Source: Podarcis gaigeae
Lineage: Eukaryota
DNA: 64,000 bases
NCBI GenBank assembly: GCA_964106915.2
Contig: OZ066919.1
Strand: one strand, 5' to 3'
Made by a program: the position numbers and the translations under genes
In this document: one piece after another, positions 8,531 to 50,520 of the stretch
How positions within the stretch are numbered: position 1 is the first letter of the stretch
Layout of the letters: every line of letters begins with the position of its first letter
Notes under the pieces: generated by a model
Seen by the model: only the letters and a program-made list of their open reading frames with translations
Told to the model about the DNA's origin: nothing
The model's database searches: none

Positions 8531-8666
8531 CAGAAATAGGCAAACTCGGCCCTCCAGATGTTTTGGGACTACAACTCCCATGATCCCTAGCTAACAGGAC
8601 CAGTGGTCAGGGATGATGGGAGTTGTAGTCCCAAAACATCTGGAGGGCTGAGTTTGCCTATGCCAG
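8531..8666. mobile_element. Palindromic hAT-type MITE
   Basis: Almost fully self-complementary; TSD gtttgggg/gtctgggg. Degenerate relatives at ~616-748, 22345-22469, 34248-34375, 48631-48760 and 59560-59680. Confidence 0.85.
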
Positions 8667-12192: not shown

Positions 12193-12590
12193 TGTTGTTG
12201 TTGTTTAGTTGTTTAGTCGTGTCCGACTCTTTGTGACCCATGGACCAGAGCACACCAGACACTGCTGTCTTCCACTGCCTCCTGCAGTTTTGGTCAAACT
12301 CATGCTGGTAGCTTCAAGAACACTATCCAAGCATCTTGTCCTCTGTCGTCCCCTTCTCCTTGTGGCCTCCATCTTTCCCAACATCAGGGTCTTTTACAGG
12401 GAGTCTTCTCTTCTCATGAGGTGGCCAAAGTATTGGAGTCTCAGCTTCAGGATCTGTCCTTCCAGTGAGCACTCAGGGCTGATTTCCTTAAGAATGGATA
12501 GGTTTGATCTTCTTGCAGTCCATGGAACTCACAATAGTCTCCTCTAGCACCATAATTCAAAAGCATCAATTCTTCGGCGATCAGCCTTCT
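12193..12590 (-). mobile_element. BovB 3' fragment
   Basis: Same 3' sequence and (TTG)n tail as the long copy; flanked on both sides by (ACAT)n. Confidence 0.93.
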
Positions 12591-13479: not shown

Positions 13480-13899
13480 AGCTATGGTTTTCCCAGTAGT
13501 GATGTATGGAAGTGAGAGCTGGACCATAAAGAAGGCTGATCGCCGAAGACTTGATGCTTCTGTATTATGGTGCTGGAGGAGACTCTTGAGAGTCCCATGG
13601 ACTGCAAGAAGATCAAACCTATCCATTCTGAAGGAAATCAGCCCTGAGTGCTCACTGGAAGGACAGATCCTGAAGCTGAGGGTCCAATACTTTGGCCACC
13701 TCATGAGAAGAGAAGACTCCCTGGAAAAGACCCTGATGTTGGGAAAGATGGAGGGCACAAGGAGAAGGGGACGACAGAGGACGAGATGGTTGGATAGTGT
13801 TCTTGAAGCTACAAACATGAGTCTGACCAAACTCCGGAAGGCAGTGGAAGCCAGGAGTGCCTGGAGTGCTCTGGTCCATGGGGTCACAAAGAGTCGGAC
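13480..13899 (+). mobile_element. BovB 3' fragment, tail missing
   Basis: ORF 13430-13918 contains AMVFPVVMYGSESW...HGVTKSRT, matching the BovB C-terminus. Confidence 0.93.
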
Positions 13900-14586
13900 C
13901 TTGTGTTCAGCTTTATAAACCCCCAACATCAAGCTATAAAACATAGTATGGCATCTACAGTTGGGTCGCCTGTTTTTAAGCAGTAACTCTGTAAAATGAC
14001 TCATGGATTTATTTCATAAAACTTACACACCGCGTGGTTGTAAAGAAAAACCTCAAAGCAGTTTACTCAAACTGTGATGTATATGGGTGTGCATCTGTGA
14101 AATCTACAGTGCTAGGGGAGGGCTGGGGCCTGTATATTTGATACCTGCATGCTATTCCCCCTTTCGCAACAAATAGCAGCTTTGAGATGATACAGACTTG
14201 CAAAATAATATGGGGCAGGGGAATTTAACTCCTCTGCAAGCAGCATGGTCTGATTACACCCCTGTAGCTTCTTTTAAAAAACAACATGGGAGACCAATCA
14301 CAGTTCTCCTGCCTTCTTATCTAGTATCTTAAATAAATACAGAACATTATGAATGCAGATTAAGAAGGATGATGCTCTGGAGCCGCTCCCATTCATTTCA
14401 ATGGAGTGTAGTGGAGAACTCCTCAGAGGTTTATGCCCTAGATGCATATACTGTATAAATGTTGCTCCAAAATCAACACTGGAACTCCGACATTTCCTAA
14501 ATGTGTAGGCACAGGGATTCTTATTCAGATTTTATTTTTATTTTTTTAAAAAACTTAGTTATTGAGACTTGTTCAAAGCTATACAA

Positions 14587-15107
14587 AAATACATCAAGAC
14601 AAAAGCACACCAAGAACTCAGGCCAATATAACTTTCAATAGTGGGAGTGGTCCCTACTCACAATTCCATAGTCAACAGAAACAAAAACTAATCCATTCAG
14701 AAGTATGTATTATAATAAAGATTACAAACTCAAATAGAGATTACAGACTCTAACAGAGATTTCAAACTCAAAGAGATATGTATAAAACAATAATTCGTTA
14801 CAAAGATTTTCTCCTTTTCACTCGACAATAATGTTGATCCTCATAATTTATCAGCTTGTAGATAGAGACTCAGTTTCAGTCATTGAGCAGAAGTCAGTTA
14901 TGGATTGGAAACCAGAACAGGGCCCTGTTTTGATGTATTCACCTTCATCAGCTGGAAGTATCAAATATCACATGAAAATACATTTAAATTCTAAATTATC
15001 ATAAATTATAAAACAGTATTATATACCAATTGTGAGTAGGGACCACTCCCACTATTGAAACTTATATCGGCCTGAGTTCTTGGTGTGCTTTTGTCTTGGT
15101 ATATTTA
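14587..15107 (-). mobile_element. Penelope-like element remnant with inverted termini
   Basis: 79-bp inverted repeats (14587-14665 / 15028-15106, 4 mismatches), a 14-bp direct repeat atacaaaaatacat (14581-14594 / 15108-15121) and an internal hammerhead motif. Confidence 0.7.
14912..14955 (-). ncRNA. Minimal type-I hammerhead ribozyme motif with G12 mutated to A
   Basis: Minus strand reads ccag CTGATGA a ggtg aata catc aAAA cagggccctg TT ctgg. Confidence 0.7.
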
Positions 15108-15379
15108 ATACAAAAATACATACCCATTACAAGATCAGATTCGAGTCGGATGTACAGGTGCATCCAAATGATGTGTGATCACTGATGCACGGGCCCTTTT
15201 GGACTGGAGAAGGGAAGAACGGGGGCAGCAGGGGGTGGGGCATGCTTATGCATGCTCTGTTGATGCGCGCAGGGAGCAAGAACGGAGCCCCCACACAAAA
15301 TGGTCGTCTCCTGTATTCAATTTTCAATTGGTCTGAACTCACATAACCAAACATTGACCTATGTCCCCATTTCTATATA

Positions 15380-18370: not shown

Positions 18371-19523
18371 GGCTTGCACTGTTTACCAAGCCTAACGAAA
18401 CCTGGTCGGACTACAGGGTACTTTACAATCACCTGCTTCTGCAGTCCTAGGCAGGCATCAAAACAGGGCAGGTATTGAGTCTTTGTTGGTCTTGATTGTT
18501 GATTCAGCTTGGTAGGTCACAAGTAGTGAAGACTTTTCCAGTATCTGAAAAATCTTGTCACAGTGTTAACTTAAGTCAATGCACCTCCTTAGAGCATTGA
18601 GGAGAATATGAGAATTCATGAGGTCCTTTGCCCAGTATCTGTCTTTGCCCATGATATTAGTTTGATAAATGTTTGTGTGTGAGAGAAAATTCATACACGA
18701 AAAAAGCCTTTGCCTTTATCCTGGTTTCCACGACTTATGACATGCTTATCTTGACTGTATTCAAAATTCACCTTGCCAAGCCTAGATATCATGATTTGGA
18801 AATGATGCATTTTGTCCTGGCAGCATCTTGGGTCTAGCATTTCATTCTGATAAACATCAGAGATAAACATCAGAGAAATATAGCTAAGGGAAATAAGAAG
18901 AGCTGATTATAACTCAGTATGAAGTTTTGTGTGACAAGTTCCATTCATTGTGAGAACTCTTTGTTTCTTGCAAATGAGCTCTTTTGAATGCTGCTCTCCT
19001 GCAGAGTGCAATGTGCGTATCATCCATCAAAGCAAGAGTCAACGAAGGAAATGAGGACAGTTGATAACATGTTTCTTATGATAATGCCATTTTTCCATGA
19101 TTACCAAAGGCCAAAACTTATATATTCGAGGGAAAATGTTATGTTTTGAAAAACATTCAGAACTTCCCACACAATTTAGAGCTGAACTATTACAGAGAGC
19201 TGGGGGCATGGGAAGGTGTCTCCAGGACTAAAGTCACACAGGCAAAAGAAAGAAAGAAAAAAGGATTATGGGATGTTTTGTGTAGGAACTTTCCAGAGCA
19301 GAAAACAAACCAAGAGGATTATTTCCAGTACCAAGTACACACACATTGTCATCTTTCTTTTCTCTTCCCCAAACATATTATTGAACAAAGAACTAGTGTG
19401 ACATTAGAAATTCCCATATTTTCCAATGGCAGCTCAGCAACATACCTATACCCATGTATTGTTGGTTGTGTAATGGACTGCCTGTCATGGATTTTGGAAG
19501 CATTAAACTATCCTAGTATATTG

Positions 19524-20127
19524 CAATTCTGGGCTGCATCAATAGGAGTATAGCATCTAGATCAAGGGAAGTAATAGTGCCACTGTATTCTGCTCTGGTC
19601 AGACCTCACCTGGAGTACTGTGTCCAGTTCTGGGCACCACAGTTCAAGAAGGACACTGGCAAACTGGAACGTGTCCAGAGGAGGGCAACCAAAATGGTCA
19701 AAGACCTGGAAACGATGCCTTACGAGGAACGGCTAAGGGAGCTGGGCATGTTTAGTCTGGAGAAGAAGAGGTTAAGGGGTGATATGATAGCCATGTTCAA
19801 ATTTATAAAAGGATGTCACATAGAGGAGGGAGAAAGGTTGTTTTCTGCTGCTCCAGAGAAGCAGACACGGAGCAATGGATCCAAACTACAAGAAAGAAGA
19901 TTCCACCTAAACATTAGGAAGAACTTCCTGAGAGTAAGAGCTGTTCGACAGTGGAATTTCCTGCCAAGGAGTGTGGTGGAGTCTCCTTCTTTGGAGGTCT
20001 TTAAGCAGAGGCTTGACAACCATATGTCAGGAGTGCTCTGATGGTGTTTCCTGCTTGGCAGGGGGTTGGACTCGATGGCCCTTGTGGTCTCTTCCAACTC
20101 TATGATTCTATGATTCTATGGTTCTAT
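19524..20127 (+). mobile_element. CR1 LINE 3' end, young
   Basis: Open 154-aa ORF2 C-terminus ([19 protein letters not shown]...), (attctatg)n tail and a 7-bp TSD tatattg (19517-19523 / 20125-20131). Confidence 0.95.
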
Positions 20128-36154: not shown

Positions 36155-38900
36155 TTGTTGTTGTTGTTGTTGTTTAGTCGTTTAGTCGTGTCCGACTCTT
36201 CGTGACCCCATGGACCAGAGAACGCCAGGCACCTCTGTCCTCCACTGCCTCCCGCAGTTTGCTCAAACTCATGCTGGTAACCTCGAAAACACTATCCAAC
36301 CATCTCGTCCTCTGCCGTCCCCTTCTCCTTGTGCCCTCCATCTTTCCCAACATCAGGGTCTTCTCCAGGGAGTCTTCTCTTCTCATGAGGTGGCCAAAGT
36401 ACTGGAGCCTCAGCTTCACAATCTGTCCTTCCAGTGAGCACTCAGGGTTGATTTCCTTCAGTATGGAGAGGTTTGATCTTCTTGCAGTCCATGGGACTCT
36501 CAAGAGTCTCCTCCAGCACCATAATTCAAAAGCATCAATTCTTCGGCGATCAGCCTTCTTTATGGTCCAGCTCTCACTTCCATACATCACTACTGGGAAA
36601 ACCATAGCTTTAACTATACGAACCTTTGTTGGCAAGGTGATGTCTCTACTTCTCAAGATGCTGTCTAGGCCTGTCATTGCCCTTCTCCCAAGAAGCAGGC
36701 GTCTTTTAATTTCGTGGCTGCTGTCACCATCTGCAGTGATCATTGAGCCCAAGAAAGTAAAATCTCTCACTACCTCCATTTCTTCCCCTTCTATTTGCCA
36801 GGAGGTGATGGGACCAGTGGCCATGATCTTCGTTTTTTTGATGTTGAGCTTCAGACCATATTTTGCGCTCTCCTCTTTCACCCTCATTAAAAGGTTCTTT
36901 AATTCCTCCTCACTTTCTGCCATCAAGGTTGTGTCATCTGCATATCTGAGGTTGTTGATATTTCTTCCGGCAATCTTAATTCCGGCTAGGGATTCATCCA
37001 GCCCAGCCTTTCGCATGATGAATTCTGCATATAAGTTAAATAAGCAGGGAGACAAAATACAGCCTTGTCGTACTCCTTTCCCAATTTTGAACCAATCAGT
37101 TGTTCCATATCCAGTTCTAACTGTAGCTTCTTGTCCCACATAGAGATTTCTCAGGAGACAGATGAGGTGATCTGGCACTCCCATTTCTTTAAGAACTTGC
37201 CATAGTTTGCCGTGGTCGACACAGTCAAAAGCTTTTGCATAGTCAATGAAGCAGAAGTAGATGTCTTTCTGGAACTCTCTAGCTTTCTCCATAATCCAGC
37301 GCATGTTTGCAATTTGGTCTCTGGTTCCTCTGCCTCTTCTAAATCCAGCTTGCACTTCTGGGAGTTCTCGGTCCACATACTGCTTGAGCCTTCCTTGTAG
37401 AATTTGAAGCATAACCTTGCTAGCGTGTGAAATGAGTGCAATTGTGCGGTAGTTGGAGCATTCTTTGGCACTGCCCTTCTTTGGGATTGGGATGTAGACT
37501 GATCTTCTCCAATCCTCTGGCCACTGCTGAGTTTTCCAAACTTGCTGGCATATTGAGTGTAGCACCTTAACAGCATCATCTTTTAAAATTTTAAATAGTT
37601 CAGCTGGAATGCCATCACTTCCACTGGCCTTGTTATTTGCAGTGCTTTCTAAGGCCCATTTGACTTCACTTTCCAGGATGTCTGGCTCAAGGTCAGCAAC
37701 CACACTACCTGGGGTATACGAGACATCCATTTCTTTCTGGTATAATTCCTCTGTGTATTCTTGCCACCTCTTCTTGATGTCTTCTGCTTCTGTTAGGTCC
37801 TTTCCACTTTTGTCCTTTATTGTGGAAATCTTTGTACGAAATGTTCCTTTCATATCTCCAATTTTCTTGAACAGATCTCTGGTTCTTCCCATTCTATTGC
37901 TTTCCTCTATTTCTTTGCATTGCTCGTTTAAGAAGGTCTTCTTGTCTCTCCTTGCTATTCTTTGGAAATCTGCATTCAATTTCCTGTATCTTTCACCATC
38001 TCCCTCGCATTTTGCTTGCCTTCTCTCCCCCGCTATTTGTAAGGCCTCATTGGACAGCCACTTTGCTTTCTTGCATTTCCTTTTCATTGGGATGGTTTTC
38101 GTTGCTGCCTCCTGTATAATGTTACGAGCCTCCATCCATAGTTCTTCAGGCATTCTGTCCACCAAATCTAAATCCTTAAACCTGTTCCTCACTTCCACTG
38201 TGTATTCATAAGGGATTTGACTTAGATTGTATCTTACCGGCCCAGTGGTTTTTCCTACTTTCTTCAGTTTAAGCTTGAATTTTGCTATAAGAAGCTGATG
38301 ATCTGAGCCACAGTCAGCTCCAGGTCTTGTTTTTGCTGACTGTATAGAGCTTCTCCATCTTTGGCTGCAGAGAATATAATCAATCTGATTTCGATGCTGC
38401 CCATCTGGTGATGTCCATGTGTAGAGTCGTCTCTTGTGTTGTTGGAAAAGCGTGTTTGTGATGACCAGCTTGTTCTCTTGACAGAACTCTATTAGCCTTT
38501 GCCCTGCTTCGTTTTGATCTCCAAGGCCAAACTTGCCAGTTGTTCCTTTTATCTCTTGACTCCCTACTTTAGCATTCCAATCCCCTATAATGAGAAGAAC
38601 ATCCTTCTTTGGTGTCACTTCTATAAGGTCTTGTAAGTCTTCATAGAATTGGTCAATTTCAGTTTCTTCAGCACAAGTAGTTGGTGCATAAACTTGGATT
38701 ACTGTGATGTTAAAAGGTCTGCCTTGGATTCGTATCGAGATCATTCTATCATTTTTGAGATTGCATCCCAGTACAGCTTTCGCCACTCTTTTGTTGACTA
38801 TGAGGGCCACTCCATTTCTTTTATGGGTTTCTTGCCCACAGTAGTAGATATGATGGTCATCCGAACTGAATTCACCCATTCCCGTCCATTTTAGTTCACT
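36155..38900 (-). mobile_element. BovB LINE, ~2.75 kb, 5'-truncated, young
   Basis: Intact ORF plus (CAA)n tail, seen as (TTG)n at 36155-36173. No TSD visible. Confidence 0.95.
36174..38879 (-). CDS. BovB (RTE clade) LINE ORF: APE endonuclease plus reverse transcriptase, N-terminally truncated
   Basis: 901-aa uninterrupted ORF with EN motifs VYAPT, GDWNAKVG, NQIDYIL, GSDH and RT motifs FIDYAKAFD, GVRQGCILSP, LRYADD. The frame stays open upstream to 38900 (SELKWTG), where homology stops. Confidence 0.95.
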   Translation of the reverse strand: MGEFSSDDHHIYYCGQETHKRNGVALIVNKRVAKAVLGCNLKNDRMISIRIQGRPFNITVIQVYAPTTCAEETEIDQFYEDLQDLIEVTPKKDVLLIIGDWNAKVGSQEIKGTTGKFGLGDQNEAGQRLIEFCQENKLVITNTLFQQHKRRLYTWTSPDGQHRNQIDYILCSQRWRSSIQSAKTRPGADCGSDHQLLIAKFKLKLKKVGKTTGPVRYNLSQIPYEYTVEVRNRFKDLDLVDRMPEELWMEARNIIQEAATKTIPMKRKCKKAKWLSNEALQIAGERRQAKCEGDGERYRKLNADFQRIARRDKKTFLNEQCKEIEESNRMGRTRDLFKKIGDMKGTFRTKISTIKDKSGKDLTEAEDIKKRWQEYTEELYQKEMDVSYTPGSVVADLEPDILESEVKWALESTANNKASGSDGIPAELFKILKDDAVKVLHSICQQVWKTQQWPEDWRRSVYIPIPKKGSAKECSNYRTIALISHASKVMLQILQGRLKQYVDRELPEVQAGFRRGRGTRDQIANMRWIMEKAREFQKDIYFCFIDYAKAFDCVDHGKLWQVLKEMGVPDHLICLLRNLYVGQEATVRTGYGTTDWFKIGKGVRQGCILSPCLFNLYAEFIMRKAGLDESLAGIKIAGRNINNLRYADDTTLMAESEEELKNLLMRVKEESAKYGLKLNIKKTKIMATGPITSWQIEGEEMEVVRDFTFLGSMITADGDSSHEIKRRLLLGRRAMTGLDSILRSRDITLPTKVRIVKAMVFPVVMYGSESWTIKKADRRRIDAFELWCWRRLLRVPWTARRSNLSILKEINPECSLEGQIVKLRLQYFGHLMRREDSLEKTLMLGKMEGTRRRGRQRTRWLDSVFEVTSMSLSKLREAVEDRGAWRSLVHGVTKSRTRLND

Positions 38901-39227
38901 CCTTTATTTATTTTTTGTTATTGAAATCCTCATTAGTTTCATTATCTGTTCACAACCATCATATGTGATCCTTTACATCCCTCTTGGTTTTTGTTCTCAT
39001 TCTGCCCCCTACAATTATTTTTGGCCTTTGTCTGTAGTGCTAGTGGCAGCAAAACTATGGCTCTCTTGGGTTCTCCCAACCCCACAACATGTCCCAGAGG
39101 TTGAATTGTTCTGGGAACTGTGGGTTCAAAATGGTAGCTGCCACAAAAATGGTGCTCTTTCCCCAGTGGCTGCCCTATTTCTCCCAGAATGCCTTGTAAT
39201 GACCACAACACTGGGGCATGCTGGGAG

Positions 39228-48548: not shown

Positions 48549-48628
48549 ATACCTTTATTATGCTAACCAAAGTATCACAAAATAGTGTGGGAGCTTTTGA
48601 GTTCTCCAGAAGTATTCATCAGGCTAGA
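48549..48628 (-). mobile_element. Penelope-like pLTR 3' stub with degenerate hammerhead core
   Basis: Minus strand reads cCTGATGAatacttctggagaactcaAAAgct...ttggttagcataataaaggtat. Confidence 0.55.
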
Positions 48629-50026
48629 TCGGAGGTGGGTGATGTGATGCTCTCCAGATGTTGGGAACTACAACTCAAATCAGCCTAGGCACAATGGCCA
48701 ATGGTCAAGGTGGAAGGGAGTTGTAGCCCAAAACAACTGGAAGGAACTACACTGGCTACCTTTGGGCTAGCTAGATGATGAACAGAGCATTTTGGGTGAG
48801 ATGCGGGAACTTTGGGAGCTGAAGCTGAAGACATGGGGCCTGCATTTCCATGGTGCATATCAGTGGCTGATTCTCCATTTTGAAAACCCATGAACTGCCA
48901 CCCAAATCTCCCATGTGACAGCCATTTCCTGCACTTCTGGAGACGGGGAATCGATCATTGTTATAGTTCCCAGCAGGCTTTCATGCCAACGGCTACTAGA
49001 CACGATGGCTGTGTTCTATCTCCACTTCCAGAGGCATTATGTCTCTGAATACCAACTGCTTGGAATTGCAGAGGGGCAGAGTGCTGTTGTGCTCACATCC
49101 TGCTTGCAGGCTTCCCAGAGGCACCTGCTCAGCCACTGGCCTGATCCAGCAGGCCCATATGATGTCCTTGTGATGCTTGCACAGCATCGCAAGGGCCTCG
49201 TTTGAATATCTGCTACCTCCTCCCATTGAACTCAGTAGGACTTTCTAAGTAAACACGCCTCAGATTGCACTGCTCATGCGATGCATATGCCACTCTTCTT
49301 CCAAGGAACTCCAAGTAGTTTATACATGATTTACAGGTGGTCTTCCATTCAGCTATCGTCTGGGATTAGACCTCTGTTTCAGGAGCGGAACAGTATTATG
49401 CGCCTTCACACCATTCCCTGGGCCGGAGTACTTGATACTGCTTGTCCTTTTTTATTTTTTAAAAAAGCTTATTTCCTTCAAGACTTATTCTGAAGTGGAA
49501 TGAAAAAGGGCCCCAGACTATGACTTCATAAAGTGGAAATGATTTCCCCTTCAGTCACTCCAACACTTGAAAGTAGTAGATTAATGAGTAAAATAGGCAT
49601 GTAATGTATAAAGCAGTTAATATGCACAATCAAAGCAGAAATCCCAAACCACACACCTATGTGGAAGTAGATCACATTTAATTAATAATAACCTGTGGTA
49701 CTGTTAAGCAATTTTAGACTCTGGATTTAATGATCTTGTCCGTCCATCCCCTGTTTAGATGGTAATGGGTATCACTTTACATACTTCAAACTGCAGTGAG
49801 CCAGCTTTGAGGTGTTGAGGGTCTTCTTGGGGTGCTTTACTTCTCCCTCAAAGTCTTGCCCCAACACCACCAGTGGATGTGCCATGTCAGATGCTGGTTT
49901 CCCCATGAGGCTAATTCTACAATATCAGAACATAATTGTCATAGGTATTGCAGATATCATATATAACACTGGCAGTGTGTTTGGGCTTCACCTTCTGTGG
50001 GATCAAGGCCATGTAACCTTGTCTAC

Positions 50027-50384: not shown

Positions 50385-50520
50385 CAGGCTTCCTCAACAT
50401 TGGCCCTCCAGATGTTTATGGCCTACAACTCCCATGATCCCTAGCTAGCAGGACCAGTGGTCAGGGATGCTGGGAATTGTAGTCTCAAAACATCTGGAGG
50501 GCTGAGGTTGAGGAAGCCTG
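50385..50520. mobile_element. Palindromic hAT-type MITE
   Basis: TIR caggcttcctcaac/gttgaggaagcctg; perfect 8-bp TSD ggttagaa. Confidence 0.9.

What the first reader, a model, noticed from the sequence alone, without database searches (positions are those of the whole stretch)
14581..15121. Penelope-like insertion: hammerhead ribozyme between 79-bp inverted termini and a perfect 14-bp direct repeat
Seen: inverted arms 14587-14665 and 15028-15106 (75/79 identical) and the direct repeat atacaaaaatacat on both sides, overlapping the left arm by 8 nt. On the minus strand (14955-14912) lie stem I ccag/ctgg, CUGAUGA, stem II ggtg/catc, (G>A)AAA, the perfect palindrome cagggccctg as stem III, and a GUU cleavage triplet. 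The core defect at 14931 is a CpG-type transition. Established: Penelope-like elements carry minimal type-I hammerheads with palindromic stem III (acting as dimers) in their pLTRs and often insert with an inverted partial 3' copy so both 3' ends face outward. Inference: a non-coding PLE- or retrozyme-like family. It would be mistaken for a fold-back DNA transposon.
Basis: partly seen in the sequence, partly recalled or inferred. Interest (0 to 1): 0.75.

Follow-up and report, generated by a model that had tools for sequence, protein, structure and literature searches.

The report
Penelope-like retroelement relic with intron-split ribozyme
This is a short, probably dead copy of a Penelope-like jumping gene whose family carries a self-cutting RNA (hammerhead) with a small intron ending right at its catalytic core, and related genomes hold family copies both with and without that intron.

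Summary
The described features are real: arms 75/79, a 14-bp direct repeat and a type I hammerhead on the minus strand. Contigs of four sequencing runs from four organisms show a high-copy family. Most copies read G12 and a GUC triplet, so this copy has two decay changes, not one. The family-matching element is 14595-15110. The true arms are 71 bp, the right copy runs 12 nt into a roughly 35-nt optional tail, and the 14-bp repeat is target DNA. Intron-bearing and precisely intronless copies both occur in these runs (three labelled 'DNA?', one unlabelled), which points to an RNA intermediate, and splicing swaps the 5' strand of helix I. Hammerhead, tail, inverted truncated copy, target duplication and pLTR intron are all described for Penelope-like elements. 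Drosophila virilis Penelope has a similar intron next to its hammerhead. No RT/GIY-YIG partner, tandem array or empty site was found. Verdict: a decayed Penelope-like insertion of a known layout, with a modest new twist.

The parts
14581..14594 (+). Left copy of the 14-bp direct repeat (probable target-site duplication); not family sequence
   Evidence: family loose ends and contig ends place the element edge at 14595
14595..15032 (-). Main body: 5'-truncated pLTR-type sequence (intron remnant, hammerhead, about 317 nt of non-coding 3' part), ending at a common tail-less family terminus
   Evidence: depth, loose ends before 14595 in 5 (X10) and 6 (X13) contigs with unlike flanks; 6-14 stops per frame in 14951-14595
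14595..14665 (-). 3'-terminal 71 nt of the main body = left arm; one private change (14632)
14713..14779 (+). Three imperfect copies at 19-bp spacing inside the family sequence
   Evidence: D1; region covered by family contigs
14912..14955 (-). Type I hammerhead: 4-bp helix I, CUGAUGA, extra A after A9, 4-bp helix II with G10.1-C11.1, (G>A)AAA, palindromic helix III, cleavage triplet
   Evidence: family letters
14931..14931 (-). G12>A, CpG-type transition; other copies mostly G
   Evidence: 14, 18, 24 and 21 contigs carry plus-strand C
14916..14916 (-). C17>U; other copies read GUC
   Evidence: 14, 18, 38 and 22 contigs, 99-100% of depth
14917..14928 (.). 12-nt perfect palindrome (A15.1 to U16.1): weak hairpin as monomer (-1.8 kcal/mol), strong self-duplex as dimer (-24.3)
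14952..15032 (-). Last 81 nt of a roughly 90-nt GT-AG intron (20% GC); acceptor CAG at 14954-14952 directly before C3; branch-point-like word with its A 22 nt upstream; the donor (AG|GTAAGG) and first 9 nt are absent from this copy
   Evidence: loose ends behind 15032 (3 contigs shown) and behind 14953 (17 contigs shown)
15028..15032 (.). Inversion junction: 5-nt microhomology in this copy (3 nt if the majority family letter at 14664 is read), inside a short palindrome of the intron
15028..15110 (+). Inverted, 5'-truncated second copy: 71-nt arm plus the first 12 nt (15099-15110) of the roughly 35-nt family tail; one private change (15068)
   Evidence: 14, 19, 19 and 14 contigs continue behind 15110 with one shared sequence of about 23 nt
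15108..15121 (+). Right copy of the direct repeat; its first 3 nt are shared with the tail, so the duplication is 11-14 bp

Best explanation
A decayed, 5'-truncated insertion of a high-copy Penelope-like (PLE) retroelement family, made through an RNA intermediate. SHOWN in sequence: the family has a type I hammerhead with an intact core, an optional tail of about 35 nt, several different 3' termini, more coverage at the 3' end than further 5', and a GT-AG intron directly upstream of the catalytic core that is present in some copies and precisely absent in others. This copy came from an intron-retaining template and has G12>A and C17>U. INFERRED: a PLE RT/GIY-YIG protein, encoded by longer copies or supplied in trans, nicked both strands of an AT-rich target 11-14 nt apart. 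One nick primed cDNA at the tail-less start (14595) and ran 438 nt into the intron. The other primed inside the tail and ran about 83 nt. The two cDNAs joined through a 3-5 nt microhomology, giving outward-facing 3' ends and the duplication. In the family RNA the ribozyme most likely cleaves as a dimer through the palindromic helix III. Helix I forms from intron CCAG (4 bp) before splicing or from the exon end (7 bp, two G-U pairs) after splicing, so both RNAs keep a foldable ribozyme. This copy is most likely catalytically dead, because G12 is the general base (recalled, not tested).
For:: 335, 433, 539 and 426 contigs laid (this count includes a repeat in the right flank). Depth at 14600-14636 is 7384 against 14 in the flank in X2; the tool warns that depth is no copy number, and 31-48 contigs per run carry the 14632 variant. 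G12 and GUC are the majority letters. Behind 15110, 14-19 contigs per run share one continuation. Loose ends behind 15032 and behind 14953 end in the same exon sequence, which defines AG|GT...AG|CUGAUGA. Locus-specific contigs stop exactly 30 nt inside 14595 (X2, X4) and 15110 (X2, X10, X13), as expected at repeat edges in a 31-mer graph. Both arms share three non-majority letters (14628, 14660, 14664 and their partners), which fits a common template. Literature: inverted 5'-truncated copy and 30-40 bp tail (PMC8557442); inverted pLTR, 8-10 bp TSD, 31-bp optional tail and junction palindromes (PMC3846280); extra base after A9, G10.1-C11.1, palindromic helix III and an intron ending at helix I in D. 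virilis (PMC4209133); both strands nicked and extended, two RT starts bounding the tail (PMC11167929).
Against: No RT or GIY-YIG ORF is linked. A motif scan of the window gave one chance hit broken by a stop. A 45-residue read-through of the 3' part found nothing (2 candidates, none at E<=10; 0 hits). Only about 25-30 nt upstream of the intron were visible. In the Anolis and Adineta PLEs the tail lies inside the ORF start, whereas here all three frames downstream of the ribozyme keep 7-13 stops even with 27 listed majority letters (38 of 78 variant rows were not shown). No empty site was seen, so the TSD is inferred. The junction contigs have 30 letters on the element side, one short of the tool's 31-letter bridging rule. 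The monomer hammerhead fold is not favoured in silico (probability 0.005 and 0.0002). Run types are guesses ('DNA?' for three, '?' for X10). Only 24 of 441 loose-end rows were shown.
Confidence: 0.85

Rival explanations
1. The family is a wholly non-autonomous, retrozyme-like or SINE-like derivative of a PLE pLTR, mobilised in trans and possibly through circular RNA. This is compatible with most of the best explanation and differs on whether ORF-bearing copies exist.
For: No ORF in the 438 nt seen; no protein relatives; retrozyme monomers related to pLTRs are described in vertebrates (bioRxiv 10.64898/2026.07.22.740005).
Against: No recurrent head-to-tail joint among the 15 of 20 joints shown (one 'goes back 76' joint in one X10 contig). 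The consensus after the tail differs from run to run, which fits dispersed copies. Intron, tail and inverted copy are pLTR traits.
Confidence: 0.3
2. The intronless form is not a spliced product: it is ancestral and a sub-lineage gained the 90-nt intron, or a DNA-level deletion joined two AG dinucleotides.
For: No RNA was examined. The exon end differs by one letter between intronless and intron-bearing contigs in X2, so subfamilies exist. No tree was built.
Against: The missing piece starts with GTAAGG after AG and ends in CAG, is AT-rich and has a branch-point-like word. A 75-bp intron at the same place is spliced in D. virilis Penelope RNA (PMC2377424). In X13 the intronless exon end matches the intron-bearing form over the 13 letters compared.
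Confidence: 0.15
3. A MITE or fold-back DNA transposon with 79-bp terminal inverted repeats.
For: Long inverted arms, a direct repeat, non-coding interior, high copy number.
Against: Family ends vary (14595, 14601, 15107, tail end). The right arm replaces intron sequence that other copies continue past 15032. Precisely intronless copies exist. The hammerhead bins have 5-8 times the depth of the neighbouring bin 14859-14895 in X2.
Confidence: 0.02

Closest known systems
Penelope of Drosophila virilis (pLTR with 75-bp intron and hammerhead variant)
   Same: Short spliceosomal intron in the pLTR ending at hammerhead helix I, so spliced and unspliced RNAs differ; palindromic helix III; inverted terminal copies; 34-bp repeat (PMC4209133; PMC2377424).
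   Different: In Fig. S3 text the intron ends 4 nt before C3 and the 2-bp helix I is common to both forms. Here the acceptor abuts C3 and helix I is 4 bp or 7 bp depending on form. The palindrome is 10 nt against 2. Intronless copies are seen here in DNA-type runs, whereas the passages read describe the D. virilis intronless form as spliced RNA or a predicted form.
Pen2a_Av and relatives, Adineta vaga
   Same: Inverted shorter pLTR at the 5' end, 8-10 bp TSD, optional 31-bp tail, palindromes at the inversion junction (PMC3846280).
   Different: There the pLTR and tail include the first 12-22 codons of an ORF; here no ORF is seen and the TSD is 11-14 bp.
PAc (Poseidon of Anolis carolinensis)
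   Same: pLTR hammerhead, two RT start sites bounding a tail in an AC-rich stem-loop, AT-rich target (PMC11167929). Here a 9-nt tail word is complementary to the arm at 15074.
   Different: The PAc ORF starts in the ribozyme and RT starts 111-118 nt into the ORF. Here the ATG in CUGAUGA meets a stop at codon 17 and the start site is about 317 nt past the ribozyme. No intron is described in the parts read. Sequences could not be compared (the .gbk supplement was unreadable).
Non-LTR retrozymes of vertebrates
   Same: Short, non-coding, type I hammerhead, related to pLTRs; monomers occur.
   Different: Defined by tandem repeats with a ribozyme in each unit; none seen here. Tail, intron and inverted copy are not part of their description in the parts read.

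Membership tests
Penelope-like elements (EN+) | ORF with telomerase-like RT and GIY-YIG endonuclease | tested here: inconclusive
   None in this copy or window, expected for a truncated copy; no eukaryote genome was searchable; protein searches blank (57, 62).
Penelope-like elements (EN+) | Type I hammerhead in pLTR with extra base after A9, G10.1-C11.1 and palindromic 15.2-16.2 region | tested here: met
   features from PMC4209133
Penelope-like elements (EN+) | Optional 30-40 bp tail at the 3' end | tested here: met
   12 nt plus about 23 nt shared; tail-less ends at 14595 and 14601
Penelope-like elements (EN+) | Inverted 5'-truncated copy adjoining the 5' end | tested here: met
   15028-15110, junction microhomology
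Penelope-like elements (EN+) | Spliceosomal intron in the pLTR retained in genomic copies | tested here: met
   GT-AG intron defined by intron-bearing and intronless contigs; splicing in RNA not tested
Penelope-like elements (EN+) | Target-site duplication proven by an empty site | tested here: inconclusive
   Repeat is non-family and beyond chance; no empty allele in 4 of 4 runs laid
Penelope-like elements (EN+) | Clade placement (Poseidon, Neptune, other) by RT phylogeny | not testable with these tools
   no RT sequence obtained
Non-LTR retrozymes | Tandem repeats with a hammerhead in each unit | tested here: inconclusive
   Single unit in the window; no recurrent head-to-tail joint shown, but contigs break at repeats
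Non-LTR retrozymes | Expression as circular RNA | not tested
   no RNA run was laid
MITE / fold-back DNA transposon | Fixed termini with terminal inverted repeats in all copies | tested here: not met
   variable ends; other copies continue past 15032 into intron and exon instead of the arm
Active hammerhead ribozyme (this copy) | Intact core CUGANGA...GAAA...UH | tested here: not met
   G12>A at 14931; cleavage itself not testable here

The most novel reading that the evidence does not exclude
A vertebrate Penelope-like family in which the 3' splice site coincides with the edge of the hammerhead core, so that splicing exchanges helix I and tunes or switches self-cleavage. Both spliced and unspliced sense RNAs are routinely retrotransposed, which makes the genome a natural record of which RNA form is mobilised and whether cleavage competes with splicing.
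Probability: 0.3. Interest if true: 0.7.

Novelty: new variant of a known kind. Interest (0 to 1): 0.42.

Why it matters
The locus itself is an ordinary decayed insertion. The family bears on two questions that the papers read call open: what PLE hammerheads do, and why PLEs keep introns (PMC8557442 section 15). An antisense template was proposed to explain intron retention (PMC3846280). Precisely intronless genomic copies need a spliced sense RNA at least once, in line with the sense templates used in vitro for PAc. Two natural ribozyme forms that differ only in the 5' strand of helix I can be compared directly. In practice it also shows how such elements can be mislabelled as fold-back DNA transposons, and gives corrected boundaries.

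Tried and rejected
No whole genome was held, so genome searches were impossible. Rfam: 6 weak matches, no hammerhead. Window self-BLAST: no second copy. Exact-pattern scans: 0 in metagenome contigs twice, 0 in prokaryote genomes, 1 in viral contigs, rejected as chance because the rest of the core is absent. Idea that the last 45 codons are a PLE ORF start: X read-through found no relatives; weak evidence given the short query. Idea that the 14-bp repeat is part of the element's tail: rejected, the family continues differently. I laid 4 of the 20 holders. The left flank is mostly uncovered in X10 and X13, which proves nothing. Earlier scan findings: nothing in 3 look-ups. Literature searches for a vertebrate PLE pLTR intron or genomic intronless copies found only the Drosophila, rotifer and Chlamydomonas cases. 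Subscription papers (Arkhipova 2003, 2006), Repbase and Dfam were not searchable, and the bioRxiv supplements and the PAc .gbk file could not be read, so this is not proof of absence.

Full report
Observation. The arms match at 75 of 79 positions. The 14-nt direct repeat is longer than any of 3000 random position pairs gave (maximum 9). The minus strand carries a complete type I hammerhead layout with one core mismatch. My descriptor found only this site in the window and 0 in 100 simulated windows, but it was written after seeing the hit. Rfam gave no hammerhead match, and the strand does not fold into the hammerhead on its own. There is no second copy in the window and no whole genome was held.

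Family evidence. Twenty of 24 listed runs hold part of the region. I laid 4 of them, from organisms A, B, E and F, at 80% likeness; three are labelled 'DNA?' and X10 '?', and each holds 1.2-1.6 billion letters of contigs. 335, 433, 539 and 426 contigs were laid, including some on a repeat in the right flank. Depth over the element is tens to hundreds of times the flank depth and highest at the two arms; the tool warns that depth is no copy number. At 14931 other copies carry the letter that gives G12 in 77, 95, 88 and 99% of depth (14, 18, 24 and 21 contigs). At 14916 they give GUC in 99-100%. So the family core is intact and this copy has two changes, of which G12>A is a CpG transition. That G12 is essential is recalled knowledge. 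Only 40 of 78 variant rows and 24 of 441 loose-end rows were shown.

Boundaries. Loose ends with unlike flanks occur before 14595 and 14601 and behind 15107. Behind 15110, 14-19 contigs per run share about 23 further letters, after which the consensus differs from run to run. Locus-specific contigs stop at 14624 (X2, X4) and 15081 (X2, X10, X13), exactly 30 nt inside 14595 and 15110. The element is therefore 14595-15110. The true arms are 71 nt (69 identical), and the right copy carries 12 nt of an optional tail of about 35 nt, matching the 30-40 bp PLE tail (PMC8557442 passages; PMC3846280 passages). The 14-mer is not family sequence and behaves as an 11-14 bp target duplication. Each arm has one private change and both share three non-majority letters. 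No empty site appeared. The left junction is in A and B and the right junction in A, E and F, whose contigs differ from the window at 12 of 249 and 14 of 250 letters. These contigs have 30 letters on the element side, one short of the tool's bridging rule, so sharing is likely rather than proven.

The missed intron. Three shown contigs (2 in X2, 1 in X10) continue past 15032 into a sequence that reads, on the minus strand, exon end AG then GTAAGG. Seventeen shown contigs (2, 5, 7 and 3) join the same exon end directly to CUGAUGA. The piece between is about 90 nt, AT-rich (20% GC over the 81 nt present), ends in CAG at 14954-14952 and has a branch-point-like word 22 nt upstream. Depth over the intron bin is about 0.4-0.5 of the hammerhead bin in all four runs, so both forms look common. 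This copy is intron-retaining and broke 9 nt into the intron, at a 3-5 nt microhomology inside a short palindrome. Before splicing helix I is CCAG/CUGG (duplex -4.1 kcal/mol). After splicing it is 7 bp with two G-U pairs (-2.9). Helix III is weak as a hairpin (-1.8) and strong as an intermolecular duplex (-24.3), which fits dimer action. Its 10-nt palindrome is longer than the roughly 8 nt maximum I could read in the garbled text of the 56-row Fig. S3 of PMC4209133.

Mechanism. Shown: the anatomy, the variable ends, the two forms and the decay. Inferred: a PLE RT/endonuclease nicked both strands, primed two cDNAs at the tail-less start and inside the tail, and joined them by microhomology. PAc nicks and extends both strands and starts at two sites bounding the tail (PMC11167929). 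Self-priming at junction palindromes is the published alternative (PMC3846280 Discussion). Confidence in a PLE-type RNA-mediated origin is 0.85. Whether ORF-bearing copies exist is open. All frames 3' of the ribozyme keep stops with the listed majority letters. No PLE ORF motif stands in the window; its one long ORF is an AP-endonuclease/RT LINE. A 45-residue read-through found no relatives. Intron gain in a sub-lineage, or a single ancient loss, is not excluded.

Comparison and novelty. Hammerhead traits, tail, inverted copy, TSD and pLTR intron are all published for PLEs. The nearest case is D. virilis Penelope, where the intron ends at helix I (PMC4209133) and is spliced in RNA (PMC2377424 passages). 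What differs here is the acceptor directly at C3, the exchange of helix I, the longer palindrome, and intronless copies in DNA-type runs of a host that looks vertebrate. The host is judged from recalled likeness of its LINEs to BovB and CR1 and from genome size; it was not tested. Eight literature searches showed no such vertebrate case, but subscription papers, Repbase and Dfam were out of reach, and the family may already be in those libraries without this annotation.

Papers seen. PMC4209133: text parts 1-2 of 4 and supplement parts 1-2 of 3. PMC11167929: parts 1-2 of 4; supplement 2 had no text and the .gbk file was unreadable. bioRxiv 10.64898/2026.07.22.740005: parts 1-3 of 5, supplements closed. 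PMC8557442: passages and section 15. PMC3846280: passages and Discussion. PMC2377424, PMC7229834, PMC7761336 and PMC6515669: passages only.

Verdict. New variant of a known kind; interest 0.42.

Noticed in passing
window 48570-48630, minus strand: A second, more decayed hammerhead-like string (CTGATGA plus A, imperfect helix II, AAAA for GAAA) followed by AATAAA; it fails my relaxed descriptor. Possibly a 3' fragment of another Penelope-like family.
   Followed up: partly
window 36174-38903, minus strand: 909-aa open frame with RVT_1 and Exo_endo_phos domains, RTE/BovB-like by recall; several 88-98% identical 3' fragments elsewhere, including an inverted pair at 12193-12590 and 13480-13899.
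   Followed up: partly
window 14500-14594 and 15111-15330: The target reads on the minus strand like the A-rich 3' end of an older element, and 15155-15330 is a moderate-copy repeat in all four runs. The insertion may sit in another element's tail.
   Followed up: no
window 14887-14888: Some family contigs carry a 7-nt insertion here, and coverage dips over 14822-14895, suggesting subfamilies that differ between ribozyme and 3' end.
   Followed up: no
window 8541-8656 and 50402-50510: A palindromic repeat of about 110 bp in two copies 93% alike, with weaker copies at 48649-48744 and 637-731; MITE-like.
   Followed up: no
window 19517-20041, plus strand: 174-aa open frame resembling the C-terminus of a CR1 LINE ORF2 (recalled; no Pfam hit).
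   Followed up: no
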